Positions 48,377 to 62,650 of a stretch of DNA of 64,000 nucleotides are shown one piece after another. The notes beneath the pieces were generated by a model. The model made no database searches. It worked only from the letters and a program-made list of their open reading frames with translations, and was not told where the DNA came from. Within the stretch, counting starts at the first letter, position 1; every line of letters begins with the position of its first letter. Made by a program: the position numbers and the translations under genes. This DNA is from Methanomassiliicoccales archaeon (GTDB lineage Archaea > Thermoplasmatota > Thermoplasmata > Methanomassiliicoccales > UBA472). The DNA lies in contig JAPKYK010000004.1 in NCBI GenBank assembly GCA_026394395.1, positions 44,542-108,541 of the forward strand, in the 5' to 3' direction.

Positions 48377-48483
48377 GGAACGGAAATGACGAGGGGATTA
48401 CTTAACCGTTGAGAGGCGCGCCAGGATGCCAGTTTTTGAGCGCCAAGGTCAGTTTCTTATATCAACAACCGAATCCGTGTGCG

Positions 48484-49226: not shown

Positions 49227-49300
49227 GGGCCCGTAGCTCAGCTAGGTAGAGCAATCGGCTCTTAACCGATGGGCCGAGGGTTCGAATCCCTCCGGGCCCG
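49227..49300 (+). tRNA. tRNA-Lys (anticodon CUU)
   Basis: Hand-folded cloverleaf. Acceptor GGGCCCG/CGGGCCC, D-arm GCTC/GAGC, anticodon arm ATCGG-CTCTTAA-CCGAT, T-arm GAGGG-TTCGAAT-CCCTC, discriminator G. CCA not encoded. Confidence 0.9.
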
Positions 49301-49316
49301 CACCCATTCTTAAATT

Positions 49317-50507
49317 TCAGTGCACGAAGTCTACGCCATCTCCCGAAGACTCGCCCCGCGCGTTGACGGTCTCCCCAAGCTTGTACATCTTGATTCCCAG
49401 TTTACCCGCCACGTTCGTTGACATCGAGTCGACCATGAACTTCGATTTGGCGCCAGTGAAGATCAGCAGGACCTTGATCAGCCCCTCGTTCGCCGGCTCT
49501 ATGGAGCAACCCCAGATGATCCTGGCCATTGGATCGACGCTCTTGCCCACGTACTCTGCGGCCTTCTGCGCCTCATCGACGGTCATATCCGGCCCGCCAA
49601 CGATGCGTACCAGCGCGCCCTTCGAGTCCTTCACGGCGATATCACCAAGAAGAGGTGAGTTGATAGCTTCCTTGACCGCCTCCTTGACTGGATCGTCGGT
49701 GTCGTTTCTGTTCGCTTCTCCAATGCCTACGAAAGCCACTCCTCCCTCGTTCATGAGCGTGAGTATGTCCGAATAGTCAAGGTTCACGAGGCCAGGCTTG
49801 GTGATTATCTCCGTCAAGCCCTTGATCGTCTGCATAAGTACTTCGTCCGCCACCTTGAACGCCTGCTCGATCGGCAGTTTTGGCACCAGGTCGATTAGCC
49901 TGTCGTTCGGGACGACGATCGTAGTATCTGTGACGCGTGCCAGCTTTTCCAGGCCGTCCAGGGCGTTCTCCATTCTGATCGCGCCCTCGGCCTTGAAGGG
50001 CAGGGTGACAACCCCGATGGTCATGGCACGATATCGTTCCTTGGCCATCTGAGCGACATAATGCGCCGCTCCCGTACCTGTTCCTCCTCCCATTCCCGCG
50101 GTTATGAACACTATGTTCGCTCCATTGAGAAAATTGCTGATCTCGGTGTCGTTCTCCCGGGCGGCCTGCTCCCCCACCCTGGGTATCGCCCCCGCTCCCA
50201 GGCCGCGGGTGGTCGTCTTACCGATCAGTATCTTGGCCGGGGTTCGTATGGTCAGAAGATGCTTCACGTCGGTGTTGATGCCGCATAACTGTGCTCCATT
50301 TATGCCCTCGTCCACGCAGCGGTTTATGGTGTTGCATCCGCCGCCACCGCAGCCGATGATCTTGATGCAAACATCGAGCTGTTGGGCGATCTTCCTTATC
50401 TCTTCATCGGCAGGGGAGCATTCCGTCGCCGCTTTCTCCTGAGCCGGCGTTTTCAACTTATTGCTCTCAAGGCTCGCTAGAGCGCTCTTGACTAATGAGT
50501 TTGGCAT
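49317..50507 (-). CDS. ftsZ: cell division protein FtsZ
   Basis: GCGGGGCNTINR, GLGAG and GMGGGTGTGAA tubulin signature. ATG at 50507 preferred over TTG at 50519. Confidence 0.95.
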   Translation of the reverse strand: MPNSLVKSALASLESNKLKTPAQEKAATECSPADEEIRKIAQQLDVCIKIIGCGGGGCNTINRCVDEGINGAQLCGINTDVKHLLTIRTPAKILIGKTTTRGLGAGAIPRVGEQAARENDTEISNFLNGANIVFITAGMGGGTGTGAAHYVAQMAKERYRAMTIGVVTLPFKAEGAIRMENALDGLEKLARVTDTTIVVPNDRLIDLVPKLPIEQAFKVADEVLMQTIKGLTEIITKPGLVNLDYSDILTLMNEGGVAFVGIGEANRNDTDDPVKEAVKEAINSPLLGDIAVKDSKGALVRIVGGPDMTVDEAQKAAEYVGKSVDPMARIIWGCSIEPANEGLIKVLLIFTGAKSKFMVDSMSTNVAGKLGIKMYKLGETVNARGESSGDGVDFVH

Positions 50508-50555
50508 AGTGCATCCCAATAATTAATTGGATGTCGCATGATAAAAATCTATTTA

Positions 50556-50595
50556 TTGCATAAGCAATAATTTTCAAAAATAATGCAATGTTGCA
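50556..50595. promoter_or_regulatory. two TTGCA/TGCAA-type palindromes in the ftsZ / CARF-regulator divergent intergenic region
   Basis: TTGCATAAGCAA (50556-50567) and TGCAATGTTGCA (50584-50595), set in AT-rich DNA with TATA-like tracts. Confidence 0.35.
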
Positions 50596-50611
50596 AAAAA
50601 TAATATAATTT

Positions 50612-51289
50612 ATGACACAATACAATAAAACGATGGACGAAACGATAGAAATGCCCTATGCAATTTCACTGGTGGGATCCAGACCTGAATCTGTAATGAG
50701 GTCACTGATATCCCAGTTGAGGTCCATAAAAACGTTGGTCCTCTTCCATTCTGCACATCCCATTTCGATGGCCGCGGCGAACTCCATATCCATGACCTTG
50801 CACGATGTCGGGATAAAAGTGGTAAAAAATCAAATTGAAGACGTGTTCAACTTTTTTGAGGTCTTCTTGTCAGCCGATTATATCTGCTCGAAATATGGGG
50901 AACCTGCTTGGGTCAATGCCACCGATGGTCCGGGGCTGGGGGCTTCCGCCTTAACGACGTTCGCCACCATACACGGTATCGATTTAGTATCATATGACGA
51001 AGAAAAGGATGCGACTTTTTTAGTCCATCTCACCGAGCTTAACGAACTATTGCAGTGCAGTGTAAAGTTCAAGAGATTGTTGGAGGAGATAATAAGAAAT
51101 GATAATTGCTCAATGGGGCAAATTTGTTCCAATCTTATTATTTCCAGATCCACGGCATCGAGACAACTGAAAACGCTCCGCAGGTTAAATTTGATAAACA
51201 TATCAGGATCTGGACGAGGCCGATCTCCGTTCATAATATCAATGACCGCCTGGGGCAGACAATTTTGCCAATATTCAGGAATGGATTGA
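50612..51289 (+). CDS. CARF/Csa3-like Rossmann sensor domain fused to a C-terminal winged-helix DNA-binding domain
   Basis: N-terminal pattern ISLVGSRPESVMRSL..., LVLFHS, WVNATDGPGLGASALTTFA resembles CARF/Csa3/NE0113-type domains. C-terminal SMGQICSNLIISRSTASRQLKTLRRLNLI is wHTH-like. Assigned by pattern only. Confidence 0.45.
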   Translation: MTQYNKTMDETIEMPYAISLVGSRPESVMRSLISQLRSIKTLVLFHSAHPISMAAANSISMTLHDVGIKVVKNQIEDVFNFFEVFLSADYICSKYGEPAWVNATDGPGLGASALTTFATIHGIDLVSYDEEKDATFLVHLTELNELLQCSVKFKRLLEEIIRNDNCSMGQICSNLIISRSTASRQLKTLRRLNLINISGSGRGRSPFIISMTAWGRQFCQYSGMD

Positions 51290-51425
51290 TTTCATATCTT
51301 ATGGTGCTAAGATCGAAGCTGGGAACAATTGGCGTGGAACGTGACCGAATTCGTTGCCGCCACCGTTCAGACACGATTCCGACGCCTTTTCATTGAATAT
51401 TCAACCAAAATATAAATTTCATTTT

Positions 51426-51534
51426 ATTATTATAATTTCCTACAGATTACCAAAATGCCGTTAATGGAAAGAAAAAAGAGGAACTAGATATACATTCTTG
51501 CGATACCCTCCGGGCTTGCCATTAGGCATATCCA
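51426..51534 (+). repeat. about 110-bp direct repeat, copy 1 (contains degenerate tRNA-Lys 3'-end core at 51506-51519)
   Basis: Aligns by eye with 59632-59741 at roughly three quarters of positions. Shared blocks are ATTATTATAAT, AGATTA.CA.AATGCCGTTA, GCGATACCCTCCGGGC..GCCATTAGGCATATCCA. Confidence 0.7.
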
Positions 51535-52220
51535 GTCACCTCAAATTTTTTGTCAATCAGGGGGTTTTTTGCACCGGCCTGTTCCGAGGGAGGTGTGGCA
51601 AACGCGTTATGAATCCTCTCTACGGTCTTGTCCTCTTCGATGCGCCGATAGTACCTCTTTGTCGTTACGGTAGAGGAGTGCCCCATGGAATAGGACACAT
51701 CCTCTAGCAGCTCTGGGTGGTCCTTCATCACGATCTGCAGGAAGGTCGCCCAGAAGGTCTTCAAGGAGAATTGCTCAAAGCCCGCTGGCAAACGAGCCCC
51801 AATCACTTTCTTGAAGCGACGAAAGGAGTTGCTGGAGTAGATGCACGGATTCGATCTCCCCCGCACCGAGGGAATGAGCGGTGCAGCATCCTCGTCGAAC
51901 CCATACTTCTCCAGGTAAGCCTTACGAGCTTTAAGGAATTTAACGATGGCCAGTCTGGCCGGAGGAAGGATCACGGCTTTCCTCTCCCTCCCATACTTGC
52001 CCTTCCCCTTAGGATTCTTGATCTTGATGAAAATCATGTCGGGGTTCAGATCCTTCAGGTCAGCCAGTCTTAGTTCAGACGGTCGAAGACCGGTATTGGG
52101 CAGTATGACCACCAAGAAGCGACACACCTCGCCCGTCCATCCCTTTATTCCGTTAGCCGCCTCCTGTATATCTTCCAGCTCGTCCGAAGATAGGCTTCTT
52201 ACCTCCTTGGTAATTCGCAT
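51522..52220 (-). CDS. tyrosine recombinase/integrase, catalytic domain only
   Basis: GLRPSELRL (Arg I), MGHSSTVTTKRYY (His...Tyr). Only 232 aa, no N-terminal core-binding domain. The stop lies inside the repeat (..TGYA*). Confidence 0.75.
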   Translation of the reverse strand: MRITKEVRSLSSDELEDIQEAANGIKGWTGEVCRFLVVILPNTGLRPSELRLADLKDLNPDMIFIKIKNPKGKGKYGRERKAVILPPARLAIVKFLKARKAYLEKYGFDEDAAPLIPSVRGRSNPCIYSSNSFRRFKKVIGARLPAGFEQFSLKTFWATFLQIVMKDHPELLEDVSYSMGHSSTVTTKRYYRRIEEDKTVERIHNAFATPPSEQAGAKNPLIDKKFEVTGYA

Positions 52221-52517
52221 GCTGAACTGGGTGCCCTTTTTCTTTAATTAGCAAATAAGTTCTAAACATAATCTGTATTTGTGCAAGATCCCCAACGGTT
52301 TCCTGAATTTTTTGTTGAGTTGTAAAAAAGAATGTTGTGGCGAATGTCACTATTCCAAGGGTTCCAAATAAGGCCGATAGTGCAGTATTATTTTCACGAC
52401 CAAAATGAAGTACATATAATATCAGAACGATTCTAATAGCTTTGACTATCCAATTAATGGTAATATTTAAAAAAAATGCCAATTCTTGGAATAAAACAGA
52501 TCTAGAAAATCTTTTCT

Positions 52518-52673
52518 CAACAACTTCTCTTTCAGTTCTTCCTGCTCTCTGAATATGATTTGATTTCTTATCCCGGTCTGGTAGTGAGCTTCATTGCAGA
52601 GATCTCGCTAACCTTATGGCTTCTGGTCAAGGGAGTGAGGGACAATGGGCAGACTTCGATGGAGGCTGGCTGA
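52518..52673 (+). pseudogene. C-terminal fragment of a DUF4386-like membrane protein
   Basis: My translation ...YPGLVVSFIAEISLTLWLLVKGVRDNGQ* parallels the C-terminus ...EMVLAAWLIVKGFNPS of the intact DUF4386 gene at 54801-55538. No start or N-terminal part. Confidence 0.4.
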
Positions 52674-53078
52674 TCCTCAATAATCATTCCTTTTGCTCGA
52701 TTGGAAGATGTACTCGGAAGGGGTGATAATGAGCATGGATAGCGGAACCGGCGAGATATTCGAAGGGGCCATACGCATCACCGAGCAAAAGCCATTGGAA
52801 CTACTGGACAAAGTGGAACTGTAAGAATGAACAAGCTCGTTCCCCTCTAAACCAACAAGAACAGTAATTTCAGCCGTGCAAAATCATAGAAACATAAATT
52901 GCGACTTTGTTTTTGAGTTTGAAACACATTCAAATCAAAACTCAATTCCACAATCTCTTGGATGGATCCGCGGAGCTGGCTAGTAATAGTTTGAACTCAC
53001 GAGACCTAACAACATTTCCAACATTCCAGACTTATCACAAATTACTTTAAGAGGACGCGGTAATCAATATTGTTGGGT

Positions 53079-53645
53079 ATGAACATGGCAGGAACAAAGG
53101 CTGGAAAAAGAACGAATGCATCTACTAAAATCGACAAAAATCGAGAGGTCAAGACCCCAGCGGAGGAGGTCAAGCCACCAACCGAGCAGGAGCAATCCCT
53201 CGTTCCAACTCCAGAGCAGGGGAGTGAAGAGCCTAACATCTCAAGCATCACCGAGCAACCCACACCGGAGATAGATGCTTCAACGAAATCCAGAACCTAT
53301 AGCTCAGGGTTTGGTTGGGTGATTATTGATGGAAAGAAATTCAACAACGATGTCGTTGTCCTAATGGATGGTTCTGTTGTCAAAAGGGAGAAGAACCTAT
53401 CCCGGGATAAGAAAGCGAAGTACGGCCATACGCCATTGACCCGCAAAGAGCTTCTCCCACTTCTCAAGAATAAACCAGACCTGATAGTCATCGGAACCGG
53501 TCAGAATGGGGCGATGCCGATTACACCCAAGGCCGAAAAAATCCTCAAGGACAACAAAAGTTTCATCGGACCTACGCCGGACGCGCTCGATTGTATGCAG
53601 AAGAATGGAAGAAATGTGGTAGCACTGTTGCACGTCACGTGCTGA
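53079..53645 (+). CDS. Mth938-like (DUF498) domain protein with long disordered N-terminal extension
   Basis: C-terminal GFGWVIIDGKKFNNDVVV...LIVIGTGQNGAMPI...VVALLHVTC. N-terminal about 85 aa rich in P/E/T/K. Confidence 0.6.
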   Translation: MNMAGTKAGKRTNASTKIDKNREVKTPAEEVKPPTEQEQSLVPTPEQGSEEPNISSITEQPTPEIDASTKSRTYSSGFGWVIIDGKKFNNDVVVLMDGSVVKREKNLSRDKKAKYGHTPLTRKELLPLLKNKPDLIVIGTGQNGAMPITPKAEKILKDNKSFIGPTPDALDCMQKNGRNVVALLHVTC

Positions 53646-53823
53646 ATGGTATTGCCTCGACCCGCCTTTATTCAAAGGATTGATTGGCATAGCCTCCTCG
53701 TGGTTGAGAAAGAAATCTAGGGCTATTTATCAGTTAAAGCGAATGTTCCAGAAAGATTCCTGCACCAGTATCATGCTTGCCATTCAAGTCTAGAGAAGAC
53801 ATCGAAAGGATTGTTAGATTTTG

Positions 53824-54804
53824 TTATTTCTGTTCTATAGTTATGACGATCTTACCCCGAGCCTTTCCATCTTCGAAATACTGGAATGCCTCCGCAACAT
53901 CATCCAGATGGTACTGTCTATCTATGAATGACACCACCTTACCATCTTTAAGAAGCTCGCTAACAACAGCCAGGTCTTCCTTCCTCAACTTTGCCGTCAA
54001 GCTGCCCATTTTCTTGTTGCCGGTCATTGAGATCAATGGCCCAAGCAACAGCGCCTGGGATATTTGAGCGCCAGAACCTCCGCTCATGACGTAGATCCCT
54101 TTGGGACTTAATGCCCGCTTGTAATCTGAGATTCGACGATATCCGTTGGCGCCAATGATCAGGTCATAGTGATGGCCATTCTTAGTCAAATCTTCCTTAG
54201 TGTAATCAATGACGTGATCTGCCCCGATCGAGCGTGCAATTTCCAAATTCCTCGTGCTGCACACCGCGGTTACCTCGGCCCCGAACGATTTAGCGATCTG
54301 CACTGCGAACGTACCTACGCCGCCCGACGCCCCATAAATCAATACCTTTTGACCCGGCCGAATCTTTCCTTTGTCACGAAGGCCCTGAAGAGCGGTGATT
54401 GCAGCCAAAGGTGAGGCCGCCGCTTCCTCGAATGTTATGTTGGCCGGTTTCAACACAAGTGCATCTTCGGTGGCACATGCAAATTCGGCATAGGCACCCC
54501 GACCACACTCAGCTAGGTTCCCGAAAACCTCATCACCTGGATGGAACTGCCTAACCTCCTTGCCGACCGCTTCGACCCGACCGGCCACGTCCGATCCAGG
54601 TATCTTGTTTTTAGGCTTCAGAAGCCCAGAGGCCATTATACGGACGACGAACGGTTTGCCTCTGATCATGATCCAGTCAGCTTTGTTTATGGATGCCGCA
54701 TGGACTTTTATAAGCACCTCATTTTCCTTCGGAACAGGTTTTTCCACCTCCTTGAGCTGAAGAACTTCCGGTGGCCCGTATTTTGAGCATACAACTGCTT
54801 TCAT
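53824..54804 (-). CDS. zinc-type alcohol dehydrogenase / NADPH:quinone oxidoreductase family (MDR)
   Basis: GSDVAGRV and GASGGVGTFAVQIAK Rossmann motif. Confidence 0.85.
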   Translation of the reverse strand: MKAVVCSKYGPPEVLQLKEVEKPVPKENEVLIKVHAASINKADWIMIRGKPFVVRIMASGLLKPKNKIPGSDVAGRVEAVGKEVRQFHPGDEVFGNLAECGRGAYAEFACATEDALVLKPANITFEEAAASPLAAITALQGLRDKGKIRPGQKVLIYGASGGVGTFAVQIAKSFGAEVTAVCSTRNLEIARSIGADHVIDYTKEDLTKNGHHYDLIIGANGYRRISDYKRALSPKGIYVMSGGSGAQISQALLLGPLISMTGNKKMGSLTAKLRKEDLAVVSELLKDGKVVSFIDRQYHLDDVAEAFQYFEDGKARGKIVITIEQK

Positions 54805-55538
54805 GAATGTTCCCCCGAAGCGATTGCGGATGGATTAAATCCTTTAACTATCAGCCATGCGGCAAGAACCATTTCTTGCGGGAGTATTGGAAGATTCAAA
54901 ATGATCTGTTCCGTTGAAAAAGGATCTATGGCACCGAACATGGTCAATACGCATGATAACATGGTCAATATGGCAGCGACAAGACCCCAGCCCGATAACC
55001 ATCGAGGAACTAGTTTTGTTCGATAAAATATGATATAATATAGCATACACCCTATAGAAAAGGCCAGCAGCGCCCCAACATTGGCCACCCAACGATATCC
55101 TGCTAGTAACAACGCTCCCAAGGTTTGGAAATACGATGAATCCGGAGCTCCAGCTTCTACAAATTGATGGCTTAATGTTATTAGTAGTAGCAGACCGCAC
55201 ACAGCAACAAAACGTAACACTCCCTCAATAGTCCTGAAACCAACCGCTCCAAGAGCTAGACCTCCATTGTATTTTCTTAGCACTGGATACAGTGAAATAG
55301 CAATACCAGTAGCGGCAGCACCACCGATAAACAAAAGAAGGGCTCCTGCTGCCACTAAGCCTCCATTTGCAGAAACATCAACAAGGTAATTCGTAGCATT
55401 TATAGGTCCCAGGAATGAGATGCTTAGTATATCCACGCCCGTTGCAATTATAAATAAAACTCCCGTAATTATTGCGTTCTTTCGGTAATATCCTTCTGTC
55501 ATTCTAGTCACTTCTCCACGTAAGTCGCTGAAGGACAT
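54801..55538 (-). CDS. DUF4386 family membrane protein
   Basis: About 6 TM helices with C-terminal WLIVKGF motif. ATGA overlap with the oxidoreductase gene. Confidence 0.6.
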   Translation of the reverse strand: MSFSDLRGEVTRMTEGYYRKNAIITGVLFIIATGVDILSISFLGPINATNYLVDVSANGGLVAAGALLLFIGGAAATGIAISLYPVLRKYNGGLALGAVGFRTIEGVLRFVAVCGLLLLITLSHQFVEAGAPDSSYFQTLGALLLAGYRWVANVGALLAFSIGCMLYYIIFYRTKLVPRWLSGWGLVAAILTMLSCVLTMFGAIDPFSTEQIILNLPILPQEMVLAAWLIVKGFNPSAIASGEHS

Positions 55539-55814
55539 TCATTGCTTACTCCCCCGAACCATCTTAGATTCCTCAGATTTATTGGGATGCTCCAGATCGC
55601 TCATGGCAAGGTCCATTCTTAGCTCGCCATTGCTTCCAATCACTTCCAGAATGACGTCTTCCAAGAATCGAGCTCGTTTCAGCGATCCAATAGAGCCTTC
55701 GATAAGGACTTTTTCGTCTCTGTCCAAGGATACGTTCTTCACATCCCCTTTCGATTTGAGTTCGATGGTGAACATCCGTTTGTCTTTTCCATTTCTTGTT
55801 TGGGTCATTTTCAA
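55539..55814 (-). CDS. small hypothetical protein, first gene of the DUF4386-oxidoreductase operon
   Basis: 91-aa ORF abutting the next gene with no gap. No family recognised. Confidence 0.4.
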   Translation of the reverse strand: MKMTQTRNGKDKRMFTIELKSKGDVKNVSLDRDEKVLIEGSIGSLKRARFLEDVILEVIGSNGELRMDLAMSDLEHPNKSEESKMVRGSKQ

Positions 55815-55894
55815 ATCTCAAATCAGTTAAGCGCGAACCATGGTTGATAATCTTTATTTGATTCGGATGTGTTGCTATTAGCAGTTATGTGTAG

Positions 55895-56668
55895 GTGTTA
55901 CATTTGGTGAAAACGAACGTCGATGAGGACCGCCTCTCCGACATTCTCATACAGTTATCCAACGCAGACAGGCGGAGGATAATTGAGGTTCTTCAGACGA
56001 AGAAGCTCAAGCTAAACGAAGTTGCAAAGGAGCTGGATATCACTGCTACAGAGGCGTTCAGGCAGTTGCAGCGGTTGACGGATGCTGGCCTCTTGGAGAA
56101 GACCTCTGATGGCAGATACCGCTCCACCCCATATTCGAGGCTCATCCAAGAATCCTCCACCGCCATGGACTTTCTTTCCAAACATAGGGAGTATTTCTTA
56201 GACCATGATACGTCGCTCATTCCTCCTCAATTCCGCGCCAGGTTCGGAGAGCTCTCGAAGACCGTACTTCATACTGAGGCGGTCCCCAACATCAACACCG
56301 GCAGCGAGGTCCTCAAGAGCGCCGAGGAGCGGATCGACGTGATCGGCGAACATCGCTTGGAGCAGCATGTCCAGATAGCCAAACAGCGCTCGTTGGAGGG
56401 AGTGAAGGTCAGGACCCTGTTGCAGGAAAGCAACATTGAGAGCATGAAAGAGGAGATCATCTCTGTTAAGCAATCGCTGGAGAGGAGATTCATCCCCCGA
56501 GTTTGCGCTGTCATGATAATGACCGAAAAAATAGTCGGGATTGCGTTACCGAGGTTGGATGGAAAGATGGATTACCAGGTCTTCGCCGGTAACGATTCAG
56601 AATCAATGAGATGGGCCAGCGACCTATTTGAAGATCAATGGAATAAGGCCAAGCCATGGCACCCTTAG
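55895..56668 (+). CDS. ArsR-type wHTH regulator with C-terminal DUF1724/FilR1-like domain
   Basis: N-terminal ADRRRIIEVL..KKLKLNEVAKELDITATEAFRQLQRLTDAGLLEK. About 170-aa C-terminal domain. Divergent from the 55814-53824 operon. Confidence 0.65.
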   Translation: MLHLVKTNVDEDRLSDILIQLSNADRRRIIEVLQTKKLKLNEVAKELDITATEAFRQLQRLTDAGLLEKTSDGRYRSTPYSRLIQESSTAMDFLSKHREYFLDHDTSLIPPQFRARFGELSKTVLHTEAVPNINTGSEVLKSAEERIDVIGEHRLEQHVQIAKQRSLEGVKVRTLLQESNIESMKEEIISVKQSLERRFIPRVCAVMIMTEKIVGIALPRLDGKMDYQVFAGNDSESMRWASDLFEDQWNKAKPWHP

Positions 56669-57077
56669 GACGACTCCAGGATCGGTCCACCGAAGAACCC
56701 GTTCAGGATCCCGGCCACGGCGTACAGGGCGTTGAGGTATCATTTTTCCAATCTATATACTACCCCCGTACTATACTACTGGGGTAATATACAATTCCGA
56801 AAAAAGGCCCACCCATACCTGTTAACACTTACTTATGATCCCTTACTCGTACTGGTTACGTCGTAAGGAAAAAGGCCTGCCTATCGTTCAGGTCTAATTA
56901 AGACAGAAAAATGATACCTCTTTATTTTATTACTGAAGTTGTCAGTCCTAATCTTTACAATTGAAAATGCTACAGACATACATTATCATTTTCTAAAAAC
57001 TGAAAATTCTGAGAGTTTAGTCAATAACCAGGATATTATTATAAATCTTCAAACGCTATATTTTAAAGGCTGATCAA

Positions 57078-57593
57078 ATGACCAATACGTACTCCCTTCT
57101 TGCGATTAACGATCTGGTGCTGAAAAAGAAGATATTGTCTTTACACGAGCACTATGATGTGGAAGATATAAATGGGACTAAATTGGGGGAAGCCGAAGGC
57201 AATCTGGTTCAGATTCCCGCCAAATTCACTCTCAAGGACACCAATAATTCGGAGCTGATGCATCTCGGCGGGAAAGTGTTGTCGATCCGAGACCAGTTCA
57301 CTTTGTATGACGGATCTGGAGCAGAGTTGGGAGTTATAAAGAAAAAGATTATCAAGTTGATCGGAAGAGAGTATTGGATAGAGAAAAACGGAGTCGAGGT
57401 GATGCGTATCTTTGGGAACTTCACCGATCACGACTACCAGATGCAGATCAACGGCGCTCAGGTCGCTATGGTGCATAGGAGATGGTTCTCTGTCCGAGAT
57501 AAGATTGGTGTCTCGATTACAGGCATGGTAGATCATAGGTTGGTAATTGGAGCTGTGATCGTGATTGAGCACCTGGAAGTGAAGGAGAAATAA
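57078..57593 (+). CDS. LURP-one-related / tubby C-terminal-like (DUF567) protein
   Basis: Repeated beta-strand pattern: LKKKILSL...Y.V.D.NG..L.EAEG, FTLYDGSGAELG.IKKK, Y.M.INGA.VA.V.R. Confidence 0.7.
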   Translation: MTNTYSLLAINDLVLKKKILSLHEHYDVEDINGTKLGEAEGNLVQIPAKFTLKDTNNSELMHLGGKVLSIRDQFTLYDGSGAELGVIKKKIIKLIGREYWIEKNGVEVMRIFGNFTDHDYQMQINGAQVAMVHRRWFSVRDKIGVSITGMVDHRLVIGAVIVIEHLEVKEK

Positions 57594-57853
57594 CATCAAA
57601 CGTTCATTGAACTAAGTATATACTGCATAAAGCCAGTGCACGCGCTTGAATGATCTATAGATACGCTTCCAGACCATGATGTTTATTACATTTCTTTGTA
57701 TTGTAGTTGCAATGACTGGTTTAATGGACAACAAATCTCCCAGGGCCCACTATTATTCTGGCCTTAATATCTCATAGCTTATGAAGATTCAAAGCGGTCC
57801 TCAATTTTGGCAAGGAGAAGTGTTATCTGTTGCAAGTCATTTCGCTCTCTGTC

Positions 57854-58555
57854 ATGAGCAATGATAGGCTGAATAAGATGGATTTAATTCGAAAACATTT
57901 CTCCAGCCAGAGCGATGATTATGATCAGGATATTATCAAATGCATACCGAGCTACATCACCATGCTCGCAGCTGTAGTCGGTTCGCTGCCATTTGACGAG
58001 AGCGAGGTGTTGCATATAATCGATTTAGGAACTGGGACCGGCGCCCTGTCAAATAGGGTCATGCAGCGTTTCCCCAACTGTAAGCTCACCTGCGTGGACA
58101 TGACATGTGAGATGCTTGAGAAGGCGAAGCTCCGGTTAGTGGATAGTGCGGACATCACGTACCTGGAGAAAGACTTCTATGACCTTGAATTGCAGGAGGG
58201 CTGTGATGCGGTCGTTTCGTCCCTGGCGCTTCATCATCTAATGACCAATGATGATAAACGCTCCTTCTATGCGAAGGTGTACCGTTCCTTGCGTCCGGGA
58301 GGTGTGTTCGTCAATGCCGATGCCGTACTATCGACAGATGAATGGATCGAAGACCTTTACATGAGGAAATGGGTGGAGTTCATGCGCGTAAGCATGGATG
58401 AGGATGAAGTGAAAACGTTGCTTGAAAGGTGCAGGAGAGAAGACTCCTTTCCATGCTTGATGGACCAACTCAGGTGGCTCATAGATGCTGGATTCTCCAA
58501 GGTTGATGTGATTTGGAAAGATCACATGAGTGCCGTGGTCTGGGCGAGACGATGA
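57854..58555 (+). CDS. class I SAM-dependent methyltransferase
   Basis: IIDLGTGTGALS motif I, DAVVSSLALHHL, LRPGGVFVNAD. ATG at 57854 preferred over TTG at 57830. Confidence 0.8.
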   Translation: MSNDRLNKMDLIRKHFSSQSDDYDQDIIKCIPSYITMLAAVVGSLPFDESEVLHIIDLGTGTGALSNRVMQRFPNCKLTCVDMTCEMLEKAKLRLVDSADITYLEKDFYDLELQEGCDAVVSSLALHHLMTNDDKRSFYAKVYRSLRPGGVFVNADAVLSTDEWIEDLYMRKWVEFMRVSMDEDEVKTLLERCRREDSFPCLMDQLRWLIDAGFSKVDVIWKDHMSAVVWARR

Positions 58556-58846
58556 ATAATATGAATTGATAAAGAAAGAACAATAATGGGTTTACCTTTT
58601 TATTCCTCCGAGACAGGATTTTCGAAAAGATGGAGCAGATTCGTGTTTAGCCAGTCATTTTTCCGTATACAAATCCCCCGTTATCCACAACAACCAATAA
58701 AAACGGTAACTATTTTTTACTGTTTATTTGGCTAGTTATCACATAAAAACAGTAGAACAGTAAAACGATTACTATTTTTAATTAGTAAAAATAAGAATAA
58801 AGGGTTTATTGAAAGCGTTTCCCTCCAAGAGCGATTTGCGCTAATC

Positions 58847-59320
58847 TTACTTTTTCTCCACGACCCAGCGGCAATATGAATCTCCCTTGGTCATGAAATG
58901 CGTGGCGTGAAATTTAAAGTCGGGACTCACAACTGCAGCCATTCCTTGACATGCACATGTTAGCGACAGGCATGCCTCATAAGGAGCCTTAGAGAGTGGG
59001 CAGCCAGTGATAACTTTTACTACCTTTTTCGGTGAAGCCTCTTCTATGCGACCTTGGATGCCCATCATGCCCTCCCAAAAGTTAACTAAGGAACCCAAAG
59101 CGATAGCGTCCTTGCTTGTAATCTTGAGCTTCTTGTTTAACTCCTCTGTACTCTCCTTCCCAATCATTTCCATGGCTGGCCCATAGGCTTTCATAGCATT
59201 CTCAGAACCCATTGCATGAGTCATTGTTCCAACGGCGGCCAGCCACCATTTGACCATCGCATCACTCATAATAGCCGTAGCCTCTTGCGGGCCAACCTCA
59301 TATTTCGGTAATTCAGCCAT
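58847..59320 (-). CDS. hypothetical Cys-rich protein (possibly ATC-hydrolase-like fold)
   Basis: C-terminal GCPL....C....C.C......T.GDSYCRWVV pattern. GGAGGT Shine-Dalgarno sequence. Family call is tentative. Confidence 0.45.
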   Translation of the reverse strand: MAELPKYEVGPQEATAIMSDAMVKWWLAAVGTMTHAMGSENAMKAYGPAMEMIGKESTEELNKKLKITSKDAIALGSLVNFWEGMMGIQGRIEEASPKKVVKVITGCPLSKAPYEACLSLTCACQGMAAVVSPDFKFHATHFMTKGDSYCRWVVEKK

Positions 59321-59337
59321 TTGATCAACCTCCCCTT

Positions 59338-59475
59338 CCCATCCCTATAAAACTAGAATTTGTCGTTCCTATCAATTTATGCATAATCAAAATCATCAAA
59401 TGTCTAAGAATAAATTGTAATATTTTATTATTAATCTCTTTAAACCTCTGCTAAGATTCGTTAAACGATTTCCTT
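59338..59475. repeat. about 135-bp dispersed repeat, copy A (5' flank of the 58847-59320 gene)
   Basis: Aligns with 62516-62650. Shared blocks are CCATCCCTA.AAA, AGAATTTGTCGTTCCTATC.ATTTATGCAT.ATCAAA, AACCTCTGCTAAGATTC.TTAA.CGATTT. Confidence 0.75.
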
Positions 59476-59631
59476 ACCTTAAAAGGAGATTACAACAGCC
59501 AGTACCATGAATGACCATTTATTCCCTATTCTTACCAATTAAAAATCAGGGATAATTGAAGGTTAGACATAAAGAATAAAGGGCAATACATCCCACTATC
59601 CCAATAAAATTAACAATAATAAATTCATCAT

Positions 59632-59741
59632 ATTATTATAATATCAAATAGATTATCACAATGCCGTTATTAGAATTAAAAAAAGAATGACTGGACATGC
59701 TTCATGGCGATACCCTCCGGGCCCGCCATTAGGCATATCCA
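59632..59741 (+). repeat. about 110-bp direct repeat, copy 2 (contains exact 14-nt tRNA-Lys 3'-end core at 59713-59726)
   Basis: CCCTCCGGGCCCGC is identical to 49288-49301. It is followed by ATTAGGCATATCCA, as in copy 1. Confidence 0.75.
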
Positions 59742-59814
59742 TTCGCGTGGAATATTGGGGAAAAGTTCTGTTAGAAAAGAGGTATATACCACTACTTGAC
59801 TTTTTTTATATGAT

Positions 59815-60918
59815 ATGAGGGCCCCGGTCCCGACATCGATTTCCGTTCTTTTCGTCGTTATCTTGCTGCTCATCGGTATCTTTGGCAACCTTCCCACTTC
59901 TCAGGCGGAGGAGCCATTGGTACCCCCGCCCCAAATTCAAGAAATTCACATTTATGACTTACCTGTCGATGCCTATGGAATGAAGCTCAACGAGCAATGG
60001 GCCCTTGTCATCGATCACGGGGGCATGATGACGGACATAGGGGCCAGGAACATGACCCAGAACGGTACCTTAAACGCGGATTACGTCTTCGACATCCACT
60101 ATAACCTCGGCAATCATTCCAATTATATAGCCCAATTCATGATGATGTACGTGACGTTCGTAATAGGGAATCAGACCATGAACGTGCCATTGAGGAGCTG
60201 TGACGATATTATACTGACACGCACACCCATCCAGTATGACGGGGCTGTGCCCACGTTTTGGTGCAATATCACTTACAAGGACATCGACATCTATCCCGGC
60301 ACCTCTATCAACTCCACCTTCGACTTGACGTTGTGCCATCATTTCGTCTGCGGATGGAACGAGACGAGCGTCAAGGTGGAGGCGATATTCGGCCTGAGCA
60401 ACGTCACGTTGATCAACCCATGGAACGATACCGAGTTCGGTGCTGGCCAGCCCTACGCCGTTGAGATCCGTTATACCATGACGGTTGGTGATCCAAACGC
60501 GGCATCGATCGAGGAGAGAATAATGACCCCCACGGGTCATACAAACACCAGCCTTGAATATAACCTGACACTGGAGAACGGGCAACCCGTAACCCTATCG
60601 AAATTGACTATGAAGGACGATTTCTGGGTGTTCAATGCGAGCGGATCCTCCACATCGATCGGTTTTTCAACGATAGAATTTAGCCGAATATCTAATGTCA
60701 CCCACGGTTTCCCCAGCCTCGTCTACAAGGACGCCTTGTCGATAAAGAGCGACCCAGAGATCACGGTCTTCCATGACAACGTCAGTGCAGGCAATGATAA
60801 TGATATCAATGATACGAGCAAATCGACCGATTGGGTATCAATAATTGTGGTTGTCGGGGTCGTCGGGGCAGCGGTTGCGACCATCCTCTTTGTGAAAATA
60901 AGACAAAAGAAACGGTAA
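59815..60918 (+). CDS. secreted, C-terminally anchored surface (glyco)protein
   Basis: Signal-like N-terminus, more than 12 N-x-S/T sequons, C-terminal TM followed by RQKKR. TATA-like TTTTTTTATATGAT directly upstream. Confidence 0.6.
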   Translation: MRAPVPTSISVLFVVILLLIGIFGNLPTSQAEEPLVPPPQIQEIHIYDLPVDAYGMKLNEQWALVIDHGGMMTDIGARNMTQNGTLNADYVFDIHYNLGNHSNYIAQFMMMYVTFVIGNQTMNVPLRSCDDIILTRTPIQYDGAVPTFWCNITYKDIDIYPGTSINSTFDLTLCHHFVCGWNETSVKVEAIFGLSNVTLINPWNDTEFGAGQPYAVEIRYTMTVGDPNAASIEERIMTPTGHTNTSLEYNLTLENGQPVTLSKLTMKDDFWVFNASGSSTSIGFSTIEFSRISNVTHGFPSLVYKDALSIKSDPEITVFHDNVSAGNDNDINDTSKSTDWVSIIVVVGVVGAAVATILFVKIRQKKR

Positions 60919-61057
60919 TGTAAAGGCACACCTTTTAAAAAAATTAGCACCGAATGGATATGTATGATGATGGGCCCGATCGAGCCCGAATCTCAAAGCG
61001 TCTCGACATGCCAATACGCGCAAAGATTCATGGTCTACACTTACAATAATTTTGTAA

Positions 61058-62006
61058 ATGATGAGAATAGCTGTCGTCGGGATTGGAGCTGAAGGTGGCT
61101 TCTTCGGAGCACTTCTCGCAAATGCTGGGAACGATGTAACCCTAATCGCTAGGGGGGCAAACCCTGGATGCCCTGAGGACTAATGGCCTATTCGTCAAAT
61201 CCAACTCACTCGGAGACATCAAAATATCTGTGAAAGCAACTGATAGGCCCGCCGAAGTTGACCCCGTTGACCTAATCATGTTCTGTGTGAAGACCTACGA
61301 CCTCGACTCCGCCGCGCAGCAGATGTCACCACTTATCAGGAAAGGAACCGTCATAATCCCAGTTCAGAACGGCGTAGAGGCTGCTGACCGCATCGGGAAG
61401 ATAGTCGGATTAGAGCATCTCCTCGGAGGAGTCTCATGGGTGAGCGCCAGAGTCGAGAAACCAGGTGTTATCATACACGGAGGTTCAACGAGGCTAATAT
61501 TCGGGGAACTCGCAGGAGGCGTGACAAGGCGCACAGAAGAGATCTCCAAAGTTCTCAAAGAAGCTAATATCGTCGCCGAGCTTCACCCAAATATCCGCCA
61601 TGCATTGTGGGAGAAGATGGTCTCCAACTCAGCAGCCAGCGGGATCTTTTCATTGATTAGGCTCCCAGCAGGACCTATCAGAGATTACCCTGATTCTATG
61701 CAGCTGCTACGCGATACTATGGAGGAGAACGTCGTTGTGGCAAAGGCATGTGGGGTCGCTATACCTGAAAGATTTGTCGATGATACTATGAAGATGTTAG
61801 AGGGCTATGCGAATTGGGTAAGACCGTCTATGCTGGTCGACCTCATGGCGGGCTATCGGCTGGAACTTGACGCTACAATCGGCACCATCGTTCGACTGGG
61901 TCGAGAGAATGGAGTCGAGACTCCCATCAACTCCACTATTTACAGGGCGCTCCTACCTCATTTAAACGGGGCATCCCCAAATCCAACTCCTCCTGAAGAT
62001 GGATAA
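61058..62006 (+). pseudogene. panE: 2-dehydropantoate 2-reductase (PanE/ApbA family), frameshifted near codon 35
   Basis: The N-terminal Rossmann motif MMRIAVVGIGAEGGFFGALLANAGNDVTLIARG is in one frame and stops at 61178-61180. The rest (LDALRTNGLFVKS...VKTYD...) continues in another frame. The shift lies at or near G6 (61152-61157) or CCC (61162-61164). Confidence 0.7.
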
Positions 62007-62143
62007 TGCTGACGGACCCTCATTCCTCGTATGAATTATCGAGCAATTCTATTTTCATAGCCCGAACCTCACCGCATTCCGAATAGGTCCTCGATAAAAA
62101 AAGAAATGGTAAGAGGTTTCGGATCCAAGGAGAACCGCCCCCC

Positions 62144-62434
62144 CTAACTTGCGAGTATGTGCACAAGTGTATACAGATCCATTCCTGGAGGGAAGAATTG
62201 TAATACTGGTATCATCTCAGTGGTCATCTCTGGAACGCGCTTGTCGAGGAACTGCTTGACCTCCTCTGGCTTCTCCGTTTCATAAATGCACCAAGCGCCG
62301 GTCTGCCGTGCGTCTGTGAAGCTGTAAACAATAGCTGAACCTTTTGGGAGGTTTGGTAATGCCTCTACTATCTTTCTACCTACGACCTTAAAATTTTCTT
62401 TCTTCCAGGTGTGCAACGCCAAGAAATGTGACAT
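62144..62434 (-). CDS. small hypothetical protein (DUF3303-like pattern)
   Basis: 96 aa. HTWKKENF....G.W.IYE....EEV..F......E...E..PVLQF pattern. Tentative. Confidence 0.4.
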   Translation of the reverse strand: MSHFLALHTWKKENFKVVGRKIVEALPNLPKGSAIVYSFTDARQTGAWCIYETEKPEEVKQFLDKRVPEMTTEMIPVLQFFPPGMDLYTLVHILAS

Positions 62435-62515
62435 TTTTCACCTCAAATATTATTTTCCTCATTAAGATATTTTTACTCTCTATCTCGTCATTTTATTGCT
62501 TACATCCTCCTTTTT

Positions 62516-62650
62516 CCATCCCTAATAAATCAAGAATTTGTCGTTCCTATCTATTTATGCATCATCAAATTCGTCAATTGTCTAAAAAAATTGTAAGGGT
62601 TTTATCAATCTCTCAAAAACCTCTGCTAAGATTCATTAAGCGATTTTTCT
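62516..62650. repeat. about 135-bp dispersed repeat, copy B
   Basis: See 59338-59475. This copy lies about 80 bp upstream of the 62144-62434 gene. Confidence 0.75.

What the first reader, a model, noticed from the sequence alone, without database searches (positions are those of the whole stretch)
49227..59741. The 3' end of tRNA-Lys(CUU) occurs three times in direct orientation: footprint of serial site-specific integration
The last 14 nt of the tRNA plus one (CCCTCCGGGCCCGC, 49288-49301) recur exactly at 59713-59726 and with two mismatches (CCCTCCGGGCTTGC) at 51506-51519, all on the same strand. An exact 14-mer is not expected by chance in 64 kb. Both downstream copies are followed by the same ATTAGGCATATCCA. 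In copy 2 this encodes the last four codons and the stop of a tyrosine recombinase gene. At copy 3 only that 14-nt remnant of the integrase 3' end is left. DNA to the right of about 50.5 kb is visibly AT-richer than the core. This is the classic architecture of tandem integrative elements that each duplicate the tRNA 3' end.
Basis: partly seen in the sequence, partly recalled or inferred. Interest (0 to 1): 0.7.

Follow-up and report, generated by a model that had tools for sequence, protein, structure and literature searches.

The report
Fossil integrase array trapping FtsZ
The three repeats are real attachment-site scars of integrase-carrying mobile elements that stack up behind a lysine tRNA gene in a methanogen-related archaeon; the array is now dead, and one of its repeat-bounded units holds the cell-division gene ftsZ.

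Summary
The 14-mer at the tRNA-Lys(CUU) 3' end recurs exactly at 59713 and with 2 mismatches at 51506, against 0 exact matches in 100 shuffles.

Copies 2 and 3 are about 140-nt attP-like junctions: an AT-rich arm, the core, CCA, then the integrase stop codon.

Relatives (Methanomassiliicoccaceae) show the canonical state. An intact 338-401 aa integrase abuts tRNA-Lys-CCA. One complete 10.1-kb element is bounded by a 17-nt repeat and followed by a second integrase. Empty sites also exist, with tRNA-Lys directly next to an AsnC-type regulator gene and a prismane (hybrid-cluster) protein gene.

The window's array is a fossil. Its only integrase lacks about 138 N-terminal residues and carries a catalytic Arg-to-Trp change. 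Only 13 nt of the integrase of a third unit remain.

The copy 1-copy 2 interval is not an ordinary AT-rich element. It holds a bona fide ftsZ under strong purifying selection, plus a winged-helix (wHTH) gene. Close relatives carry this pair inside integrase/att (attachment-site) arrays, in one case beside tRNA-Gly.

Tandem integration is a known process. ftsZ as apparent cargo is unusual and unproven.

The parts
49227..49300 (+). tRNA-Lys(CUU), the integration target. The gene ends ...GGGCCCG and has no encoded CCA.
   Evidence: ARAGORN; Rfam RF00005, 71.9 bits. The left flank (GcvP glycine-dehydrogenase subunit genes, Toprim, PF1765-like, 255-aa GINS-like ORF) is syntenic up to this tRNA in more than 15 related loci.
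49288..49301 (+). att core copy 1 (T-stem 3' strand, acceptor 3' strand, discriminator, plus 1 nt). It is joined 16 nt from the ftsZ stop codon.
   Evidence: The sister genome L071 has arm + core at the homologous position next to ftsZ, i.e. an attR.
49317..50507 (-). ftsZ (396 aa), inside the first core-bounded unit.
   Evidence: Pfam Tubulin + FtsZ_C. TIGR00065 equivalog, 373 bits versus cut-off 295. 95.5% aa identity to L071 with dN/dS 0.055. GC 0.57. The TATA/palindrome promoter conserved in 10 relatives is replaced here.
50612..51289 (+). 225-aa protein with a C-terminal ArsR/MarR-type winged helix (wHTH), divergent from ftsZ, GC about 0.40.
   Evidence: Pfam HTH_5/MarR_2. Only 10 homologues were found in 5.8 billion proteins, none from an NCBI source. 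In every locus that covers its upstream side it sits next to ftsZ: L071, L072, L087-L090, L092.
51409..51505 (+). AT-rich arm, the right-end (P') arm of unit 1.
   Evidence: 77-78% identical to 59615-59712. Homologous arms occur in L071 (two copies), L072, L083 and L087-L090.
51506..51521 (+). att core copy 2 plus CCA (CCCTCCGGGCTTGCCA; 2 mismatches).
51522..52286 (-). Tyrosine-recombinase (integrase) pseudogene: catalytic domain only. Its stop codon abuts the CCA of core 2.
   Evidence: PF00589. Homology covers residues 139-401 of the 401-aa relative P0001, with one in-frame stop upstream of the ATG. Homologues are 316-401 aa. The catalytic Arg of K-x-x-R is Trp here (CGG->TGG, 51750-51752), while all 7 aligned homologues have Arg.
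52287..59567 (.). Cargo of unit 2, GC 0.39-0.54. Genes: DUF498 (53070-53645 +), Zn-dehydrogenase (53824-54804 -), DUF4386 (54801-55538 -), 91-aa ORF, wHTH/FilR1-like regulator (55895-56668 +), LURP-one-related (57078-57593 +), SAM methyltransferase (57830-58555 +), ATC-hydrolase-like (58847-59320 -).
   Evidence: Pfam; composition. Nothing resembling this cargo lies after the wHTH gene in sister genome L071, where a degenerate solo core and an integrase remnant are followed by the LRR_5 gene.
59568..59712 (+). AT-rich arm, the right end of unit 2.
   Evidence: 79% identity over 178 nt to L071 6893-7069 / L083 19606-19782. Matches 51409-51505.
59713..59728 (+). att core copy 3 plus CCA (exact).
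   Evidence: 32 nt at 96.9% identity to the attL of L083.
59729..59741 (-). 13-nt remnant of an integrase 3' end (stop + A-Y-G-T codons), the left end of a third unit.
   Evidence: tblastn finds no further integrase similarity.
59742..62650 (.). Remnant of unit 3. Contents: 367-aa signal-peptide/TM ORF (59815-60918 +), broken ApbA/PanE gene (about 61058-62006 +), DUF3303-like ORF (62144-62434 -), and a copy of the unit-2 right-end segment (62505-62650). No arm or core remains.
   Evidence: Repeats D5 and D11; alignment; Pfam; sequence.

Best explanation
The locus is an integration hotspot behind tRNA-Lys(CUU) in a Methanomassiliicoccaceae archaeon. It holds a decayed tandem array of tyrosine-recombinase integrative elements.

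In this element family, attP sits immediately after the integrase stop codon. Its order is: AT-rich arm of about 100-140 nt, a 14-17-nt core identical to the tRNA T-stem/acceptor 3' strand, CCA, then TTA (the integrase stop on the other strand).

Strand exchange inside the core puts the integrase against the tRNA. The tRNA then ends in element-supplied CCA. An arm + core copy is left at the far end. A new element can enter at any core copy, so units accumulate head to tail. Integrases then decay, leaving integrase-less, core-bounded units.

The window holds three such units:
- U1 (49302-51505): ftsZ + wHTH + arm.
- U2 (51522-59712): dead integrase + 8 cargo genes + arm.
- U3 (59729 to about 62650): remnant.

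Nothing in the window can move on its own any more.

Shown: the repeats; their attP-like anatomy; the integrase defects; the canonical, tandem and empty states in relatives; and the position of ftsZ-wHTH between the tRNA and the native right flank (genes for an AsnC-type regulator and a prismane/hybrid-cluster protein).

Inferred: that recombination occurs within the core; the order of the integration events; and that U1 itself entered by att recombination. I favour the idea that an element captured a host ftsZ lying next to a tRNA attB by aberrant excision.
For: 1. Repeat statistics and anatomy.

2. Integrase identity and decay.

3. Eleven related loci have the integrase stop codon abutting tRNA-Lys-CCA (TTA[C/G][G/A]CATATCCAGTCA...). 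Four loci without an integrase, including the window's copy 1, lack the encoded CCA. This places the crossover 5' of the CCA.

4. L059 is a 10.1-kb element (integrase + type I restriction-modification system) between tRNA-Lys and a 17-nt repeat. Another integrase 3' end follows it.

5. Empty site: in L080 and L079, tRNA-Lys is directly followed by AsnC, prismane, SBF and downstream genes. The same genes follow the wHTH gene in L072 and L087-L090, and lie further right in L071.

6. Sister genome L083+L071 (100% overlap over 8 kb) reads: tRNA/core A, 144-aa integrase fragment plus defence genes (8.9 kb), core B, HTH_5, core C, ftsZ-wHTH, degenerate core D plus integrase remnant, LRR_5... AsnC.

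7. Independent Logan contigs reproduce the window's order at 100% identity: L054 covers the tRNA-ftsZ-integrase junctions and L070 covers the copy-3 region.

8. Evidence bearing on U1:
- wHTH-linked ftsZ genes are monophyletic inside the family's ftsZ tree (271/300 NJ bootstraps). Their sister, L086, keeps the ancestral promoter.
- L092 has ftsZ-wHTH next to tRNA-Gly(UCC) plus a 58-aa integrase C-terminal fragment.
- L072 versus L087: ftsZ-wHTH is 92-98% nt identical, while the adjacent AsnC-prismane genes are 77-91% identical. dS is 0.16 versus 0.63-0.81.
- In L005 an ancestral-type ftsZ lies 365 nt from the 3' end of tRNA-Arg(CCU), a geometry that would allow capture.
Against: - No excision or integration has been observed.
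- U1 has no integrase remnant. Its left end is the ftsZ 3' flank rather than the integrase end that every other unit has.
- ftsZ has host-like GC. Between the window and its sister genome it has diverged like the core flank (about 90% versus about 85% nt). In this lineage it therefore behaves as a fixed chromosomal gene.
- The low L072-L087 divergence could come from ordinary homologous recombination rather than element transfer.
- In L072 and L087-L090 no clear core follows the wHTH gene. Only a 9-nt core-like CTCCTCCGA lies before the AsnC stop codon.
- I could not see whole genomes, so I do not know whether a second ftsZ of this type exists in them.
- The integrase family was not found in IMG/VR viral contigs or in GTDB genomes by pattern search, so the nature of the active elements is known only from a few metagenome contigs.
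Confidence: 0.75

Rival explanations
1. ftsZ-wHTH is ordinary chromosomal DNA that was never mobile. It is the host-side flank of the tRNA-Lys attB in this clade. The array to its right (core 2, U2, core 3, U3) got there secondarily, for example by excision of a tandem array and re-insertion at a secondary site, or by a larger rearrangement. The cores on both sides of ftsZ would then be incidental.
For: - ftsZ has core-like GC and strong purifying selection.
- In L071 the tRNA|ftsZ junction behaved as attB/attR.
- In L072 and L087-L090 the wHTH gene runs straight into the core genes AsnC-prismane without a clear core.
- Window versus sister divergence of ftsZ-wHTH matches the core flank.
Against: - In L080, L079 and L065, tRNA-Lys and AsnC are adjacent or 2.5 kb apart with no ftsZ, so ftsZ-wHTH is not part of the native flank.
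- The ancestral ftsZ promoter and context, kept in 10 relatives and in the sister lineage L086, are lost.
- The pair also sits beside tRNA-Gly plus an integrase fragment in L092.
- Divergence is discordant between L072 and L087.
- This model needs several unobserved rearrangements to put an arm-core-int junction right of the wHTH gene in both the window and L071.
Confidence: 0.2
2. The repeats are not att sites. The 140-nt unit is a dispersed repeat or regulatory element, and its 14-nt match to the tRNA is incidental.
For: The copy 2/copy 3 similarity (about 78%) extends well beyond the tRNA-like core. The whole genome could not be searched for further copies.
Against: - 0 exact matches are expected by chance.
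- The match is to the canonical tRNA 3' end and sits against an integrase stop codon.
- The same junction occurs at the real tRNA-Lys in 11 relatives, and an element is bounded by it in L059.
- There is no Rfam family other than tRNA.
Confidence: 0.03
3. Assembly artefact: the metagenome contig is chimeric at the repeats.
For: The window comes from a metagenome assembly. Related contigs often break just after this tRNA (L062, L064, L066, L068).
Against: - The exact repeat is only 14 nt and the long repeat is only 78% identical, too weak to mislead an assembler.
- Logan contigs L054, L055 and L070 reproduce all junctions at 100% identity.
- The sister genome shows the same core-ftsZ-wHTH-core order in two independent assemblies.
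Confidence: 0.02

Closest known systems
Tandem accretion of integrative elements and CIMEs (cis-mobilizable elements) by site-specific recombination, e.g. ICESt1/ICESt3-related islands of Streptococcus thermophilus and composite islands at tRNA-Lys in S. agalactiae (review PMC5704250; Pavlovic 2004 and Bellanger 2011 as cited there)
   Same: The three-step logic is the same: integration at the 3' end of a target gene, decay to an integrase-less unit that keeps both att sites, then integration of another element into one of those sites. The result is three or more direct att copies. Gene capture by accretion has been described.
   Different: This is an archaeal host with an unrelated integrase family. 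No conjugation or mobilization genes are seen. Cis-mobilization is untested. One unit carries ftsZ.
Archaeal MGEs integrated in tandem at tRNA genes, and the archaeal integrase classes (SSV1-type R...KxxR...Y, split on integration; pNOB8-type R...YxxR...Y, not split) (review PMC8371274)
   Same: The target is a tRNA 3' end, the core is a short direct repeat, and integration is tandem at one locus. The catalytic motif here is K-T-F-R, matching the SSV1-type consensus.
   Different: attP lies just outside the ORF, abutting the stop codon. The integrase gene is therefore not split on integration, a pNOB8-like behaviour combined with an SSV1-like motif. The family is confined to Methanomassiliicoccales-type metagenome contigs. 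Its closest curated model, XerA, scores only 37 bits against a cut-off of 220.
Tandem genomic islands at the ssrA (tmRNA) gene of Dehalococcoides (PMC3146451; only the abstract, as listed, was read)
   Same: Per the abstract, a horizontally acquired genomic island integrated at a single small-RNA gene and mobilised site-specifically. That these islands are serial, each with an adjacent integrase and a direct repeat of the gene's 3' end, is my own recollection and was not checked here.
   Different: Bacterial host, different recombinase and target. The cargo is accessory (reductive dehalogenases), not a core cell-cycle gene.
Specialized-transduction-type capture (aberrant excision of lambda picking up gal or bio); from my own knowledge
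   Same: This is the proposed route by which a host gene lying next to an attB (as ftsZ lies 365 nt from tRNA-Arg(CCU) in L005) becomes part of an att-bearing circle.
   Different: Purely inferred here. No virion or excised form is known.

Membership tests
Tyrosine recombinase / phage integrase (PF00589) | Significant match to the catalytic-domain profile | tested here: met
   Window ORF: 31 bits versus cut-off 27.1. Full-length relative P0001: phrog_1 integrase, E = 1.3e-20.
Tyrosine recombinase / phage integrase (PF00589) | Complete catalytic set R ... (H/K)xxR ... H ... Y, and an N-terminal core-binding domain | tested here: not met
   Arg-I, His and Tyr are present. Arg-II is Trp in the window copy only (CGG->TGG). 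About 138 N-terminal residues are missing. The window copy is a pseudogene; the relatives meet the feature.
SSV1-type ('suicidal') archaeal integrase | attP inside the int ORF, so integration splits the gene | tested here: not met
   The core ends at CCA and the next triplet is the stop codon. Intact 338-401 aa genes abut the tRNA in L056 and L060.
SSV1-type ('suicidal') archaeal integrase | R...KxxR...Y catalytic consensus (PMC8371274) | tested here: met
   K-T-F-R in all 7 homologues.
pNOB8-type archaeal integrase | R...YxxR...Y consensus; gene not split on integration | tested here: inconclusive
   The gene is not split (met), but the motif is KxxR rather than YxxR. No phylogeny against reference integrases was made.
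XerA/XerC/XerD chromosome-dimer resolvases | Score above the NCBIfam equivalog cut-off | tested here: not met
   NF040815: 37 bits versus cut-off 220. XerC: 29.5 versus 335.
tRNA-gene integrative element / genomic island | Direct repeat of the tRNA 3' end at the distal boundary | tested here: met
   Also met in L059 and L083/L071.
tRNA-gene integrative element / genomic island | Presence/absence polymorphism among relatives, with conserved flanks (empty site) | tested here: met
   L080/L079 are empty, L056 is occupied (GINS-like protein 98.7% identical to L080), and contents differ in L059, L065, L069, L083 and L072.
tRNA-gene integrative element / genomic island | Compositional deviation from the core genome | tested here: inconclusive
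   Met for the wHTH gene, U2 and U3 (GC 0.39-0.54 versus 0.56-0.64). Not met for ftsZ (0.57).
CIME (cis-mobilizable element), applied to unit U1 (ftsZ-wHTH) | Flanked by att sites, with no integrase or transfer genes | tested here: met
   Core 1 and arm + core 2 flank U1, and it has no integrase similarity. The same holds in L071 (cores C and D).
CIME (cis-mobilizable element), applied to unit U1 (ftsZ-wHTH) | Excision or mobilization by an integrase supplied in trans | not testable with these tools
   Only indirect hints: a different tRNA context in L092 and discordant divergence between L072 and L087.
FtsZ (TIGR00065 equivalog) | Score above the equivalog cut-off; Tubulin GTPase and FtsZ_C domains | tested here: met
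   373 bits versus 295; Pfam.

The most novel reading that the evidence does not exclude
The ftsZ-wHTH pair is (or recently was) a mobile, att-bounded cassette. A host ftsZ would have been captured once by a tRNA-targeting integrative element, probably by aberrant excision next to a tRNA attB. It would then have been moved between genomes and between tRNA loci (Lys-CUU, Gly-UCC, perhaps Arg-CCU) by integrases acting in trans. In this clade the principal cell-division gene would then sit on mobile-element-derived DNA under a replaced promoter with a new neighbouring regulator.
Probability: 0.35. Interest if true: 0.75.

Novelty: new variant of a known kind. Interest (0 to 1): 0.5.

Why it matters
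As a tRNA-linked tandem array this is textbook mobile-element biology, and it is documented here for a little-studied archaeal family with a previously undescribed integrase lineage. In that lineage attP abuts the stop codon, the element supplies the tRNA's CCA, and the catalytic motif is KxxR although the gene is not split on integration. In relatives these elements carry restriction-modification and other defence-type genes, so the site is a defence-island hotspot.

The unusual part is that a bona fide, strongly constrained ftsZ lies inside the array between att cores. It has lost its ancestral promoter and is paired with a clade-specific wHTH gene. If ftsZ really travelled as element cargo, this would be a clear case of an essential cell-cycle gene being relocated, and possibly exchanged, by site-specific recombination. 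It would also give a natural system for asking how such a gene is re-wired after capture.

Tried and rejected
- Synteny around ftsZ in 18 GTDB relatives (70-80% aa identity). No neighbour is shared with the window and no tRNA-Lys lies nearby. This was uninformative until closer relatives were found through the wHTH protein.
- Integrase pattern scans of GTDB genomes and of IMG/VR viral contigs found nothing.
- Exact look-up of the ftsZ product with a wrong start codon was not on record.
- Extension beyond the right end of the window failed. The only contig carrying the 367-aa ORF is 8.2 kb.
- I tested whether the wHTH protein resembles right-end genes of other units (the L059 230-aa ORF and the L071 HTH_5 456-aa protein). 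There is no similarity.
- PHROGs gave no hit for the wHTH protein or for the three island ORFs tested (DUF498, the 91-aa ORF, the 367-aa ORF); only the integrase relative P0001 matched. Rfam found no RNA family in the arms.
- Repeats of the tRNA-Gly or tRNA-Arg 3' ends in L092 and L091 were not found in the short sequence available.
- I first read copy 1 as simply an empty attB with ftsZ as the native flank. I revised this after L080 showed tRNA-Lys|AsnC as the native junction.
- Single-step inversion or deletion models starting from tRNA-int-E-core-ftsZ were considered and do not reproduce the observed order.

Full report
**Observation.** ARAGORN and Rfam place a single tRNA-Lys(CUU) at 49227-49300/1. 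Its last 14 nt, CCCTCCGGGCCCGC, recur exactly at 59713-59726 and as CCCTCCGGGCTTGC at 51506-51519, all on the + strand. No exact match occurred in 100 dinucleotide-preserving shuffles. Both distal copies are followed by CATTAGGCATATCCA. GC drops from about 0.57-0.63 to about 0.39-0.54 at about 50.5 kb. The finding is therefore real as described.

**Anatomy of the repeats.** Copies 2 and 3 are much more than a 14-mer. They share an approximately 140-nt direct repeat (51409-51549 versus 59615-59756, 77-78% identity). It consists of:
- an AT-rich arm of about 100 nt;
- GCGATA;
- the core;
- CCA;
- TTA GGC ATA TCC A.

The last string is the reverse complement of the final codons (T-G-Y-A-stop) of the ORF 51522-52220(-), a PF00589 tyrosine recombinase. 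Copy 2 is thus an intact arm-core-integrase junction, which is attP-like. Copy 3 has the same junction with only 13 nt of an integrase left. Copy 1, the real tRNA, matches only from the T-stem 3' strand onward. It lacks the encoded CCA and is followed 16 nt later by the stop codon of ftsZ.

**The integrase is dead.** Homologues are 316-401 aa long. The window retains only the part that aligns to residues 139-401 of P0001 (52286-51525), with an in-frame stop just upstream of the ATG. The family's motif is R...K-T-F-R...H...Y. The window copy alone has K-T-F-W, a CGG-to-TGG change at 51750-51752. No other integrase similarity exists in the 64 kb.

**What relatives show.** The organism belongs to the Methanomassiliicoccaceae.
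- The left flank (GcvP glycine-dehydrogenase subunit genes, Toprim, PF1765-like, a GINS-like 255-aa ORF, tRNA-Lys) is syntenic in more than 15 loci, and synteny always ends at the tRNA.
- In 11 loci the tRNA gene ends ...GCCCGCCA and the next bases are TTA[C/G][G/A]CATATCCAGTCA..., the end of an integrase gene.
- Loci without an integrase (window copy 1, L078, L082, L085) end ...GCCCGC with no CCA. So the element supplies the CCA and the crossover lies within the 14-17-nt core.
- L059 carries a complete 10.1-kb element (integrase, type I restriction-modification system, small ORFs) between the tRNA and a 17-nt repeat. Immediately after that repeat another integrase 3' end begins, so this is a tandem array at the same site.
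- A related integrase (77% identity) abuts tRNA-Arg(UCG) in L058.
- L080 and L079 are empty sites: tRNA-Lys is followed at once by genes for an AsnC-type regulator, a prismane (hybrid-cluster) protein, SBF, DUF2164, DUF998 and flavodoxin.
- L056 is occupied although its GINS-like protein is 98.7% identical to that of L080, so the site is polymorphic among close relatives.

**The sister genome and the first interval.** Searching with the wHTH protein (50612-51289) found closer relatives. L083 and L071 overlap at 100% identity over 8 kb and together give this order:
- GINS-like ORF;
- tRNA-Lys / core A;
- a 144-aa integrase fragment plus DNA methylase, SNF2, NOV_C and Vsr genes (8.9 kb);
- arm + core B;
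- an HTH_5 gene;
- arm + core C;
- ftsZ - wHTH;
- degenerate core D plus an integrase remnant;
- an LRR_5 protein, then further genes;
- AsnC - prismane

.

The window aligns to this genome at 87.6% from the first base of core 1 to 67 nt past the wHTH stop codon. Three conclusions follow.
- In the sister genome, the tRNA|ftsZ junction seen in the window served as the attB for later integrations.
- ftsZ-wHTH is bounded by cores in both genomes.
- ftsZ-wHTH lies between the tRNA and the native right flank (AsnC-prismane), so it is itself part of the inserted material.

The first interval is not an ordinary AT-rich element. It carries a bona fide ftsZ: TIGR00065 at 373 bits against a cut-off of 295, GC 0.57, and dN/dS of 0.055-0.08.

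**Is ftsZ-wHTH a cassette?** Several observations point that way.
- In 10 more distant relatives, and in L086 (86% aa identity), ftsZ sits elsewhere behind a conserved TATA box and a GTC(A/T)GACAAnTGTCATAC palindrome. In the window, L071, L072, L087-L090 and L092 that promoter is replaced by an AT-rich spacer and the divergent wHTH gene.
- wHTH-linked ftsZ genes form one clade inside the family's ftsZ tree (271/300 NJ bootstraps), with L086 as sister. This argues for one origin from a host gene.
- Their contexts differ: tRNA-Lys arrays (window, L071); arm-core-integrase remnants on the 3' side and AsnC on the other (L072, L087-L090); tRNA-Gly(UCC) plus a 58-aa integrase fragment in L092; and an ORFan-rich island ending at tRNA-Arg(CCU) in L091.
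- Between L072 and L087, ftsZ-wHTH is 92-98% identical at the DNA level while the adjoining AsnC-prismane genes are 77-91% identical. dS is 0.16 versus 0.63-0.81, and the step falls at the unit's edges.
- In L005 an ancestral-type ftsZ lies 365 nt from the 3' end of tRNA-Arg(CCU). That geometry would allow capture by aberrant excision.

Evidence against recent mobility in the window's own lineage: ftsZ-wHTH has diverged from the sister genome about as much as the core flank has. I could not determine whether these genomes hold a second ftsZ of this type.

**Units 2 and 3.** U2 (51522-59712) carries the dead integrase and eight genes with no replication, structural or defence functions: DUF498, a Zn-dehydrogenase, DUF4386, a wHTH/FilR1-like regulator, a LURP-one-related protein, a methyltransferase and an ATC-hydrolase-like protein. 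The sister genome has nothing of it; after the wHTH gene a degenerate solo core D and an integrase remnant are followed by the LRR_5 gene. U3 begins with the 13-nt integrase remnant. It holds a secreted/membrane ORF, a broken ApbA/PanE gene and a DUF3303-like ORF, and it ends with a 145-nt copy of the U2 right-end segment, but with no arm or core. An LRR_5-like repeat protein gene follows. It is 36% identical to the gene that follows core D in L071.

**Mechanism.**
- Shown: three direct att cores; attP-like junction anatomy; integrase decay; and the canonical attL, a bounded element, tandem arrays, polymorphic occupancy and empty sites in relatives.
- Inferred: integrase-catalysed exchange within the core; serial integration into any core copy; and decay into integrase-less, CIME-like units. 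The three-step accretion model is described for bacterial elements (PMC5704250). Tandem integration is known in archaea (PMC8371274).
- More speculative: that U1 entered as an att-bearing circle that had captured ftsZ.

**Rivals.**
- ftsZ-wHTH was never mobile and the array to its right was displaced secondarily (confidence 0.2).
- The 140-nt unit is a non-att dispersed repeat (0.03).
- The contig is an assembly chimera (0.02). This is contradicted by Logan contigs L054, L055 and L070 at 100% identity and by two independent assemblies of the sister genome.

**Comparison and novelty.** The array is a new archaeal example of a known kind. The integrase lineage is undescribed. It has the SSV1-type KxxR motif but its attP lies outside the ORF, so the gene is not split on integration. 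It falls far below the XerA cut-off, and the pattern scan found no relative in IMG/VR viral contigs. The ftsZ-bearing unit is the unusual variant. A full-text search ranked papers holding at least three of 'FtsZ', 'integrative element', 'archaea' and 'cargo'; none of the 10 papers listed contained 'integrative element'. This is a limited check.

**Verdict.** The array itself is ordinary, and its ftsZ cargo is worth following up.

Noticed in passing
window 59718-59745 and 60951-60978: A 28-nt inverted repeat, 82% complementary. A degenerate inverted copy of core 3 plus the integrase remnant (CGGGCCC...CATATCCATTCG) flanks the 367-aa signal-peptide/TM ORF. It may be an inversion footprint or terminal inverted repeats.
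   Followed up: partly
window about 61058-62006 (+): ApbA/PanE ketopantoate-reductase gene broken by a stop or frameshift near 61180. The N-terminal Rossmann part (MRIAVVGIGAEGG...) is in a separate frame from the ORF 61230-62006, whose Pfam match starts at profile position 61/150.
   Followed up: partly
window 63100-64000: Tandem 69-nt and 243-nt periodic repeats inside an LRR_5-like surface-protein ORF (62822 to the window end). The ORF is 36% identical to the LRR_5 protein that follows the wHTH gene and core D in L071.
   Followed up: no
L001-L010, L086: about 20-60 nt upstream of ftsZ: A conserved TATA box plus the palindrome GTC(A/T)GACAAnTGTCATAC, then GGGATGCAC before the ftsZ start, across relatives with 70-86% identical FtsZ. 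This is a likely regulator binding site. It is lost in the window clade, where the wHTH gene sits instead.
   Followed up: partly
L059, L057, L083/L071, L072: Elements at this hotspot carry defence-type cargo. L059: type I restriction-modification (HsdR/M/S). L057: UvrD/PDDEXK helicase-nuclease, a 1053-aa N6/N4 methylase and ResIII. L083/L071: DNA methylase, SNF2, NOV_C and Vsr. L072: DUF1156 methylase and an SNF2 helicase.
   Followed up: no
L058 7058-9022: A 77%-identical integrase (P0003) abuts tRNA-Arg(UCG) instead of tRNA-Lys. A serine resolvase gene overlaps its start. This suggests target switching within the integrase family.
   Followed up: no
L005 1140-1580: An ancestral-type ftsZ lies 365 nt from the 3' end of a convergent tRNA-Arg(CCU). 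In the near-identical L001, similarity stops about 90 nt after the ftsZ stop codon and no tRNA is found. This fits an insertion between ftsZ and the tRNA in L001.
   Followed up: no
L062, L064, L066, L068: GTDB MAG contigs end 35-540 nt after the tRNA-Lys. Assemblies tend to break at this hotspot, so its content is under-represented in MAGs.
   Followed up: no
window 48409-49176 (+): The conserved 255-aa ORF just upstream of the tRNA has only a weak Gins51_C match (E = 8.7e-4, below cut-off). I call it 'GINS-like' for convenience only.
   Followed up: no
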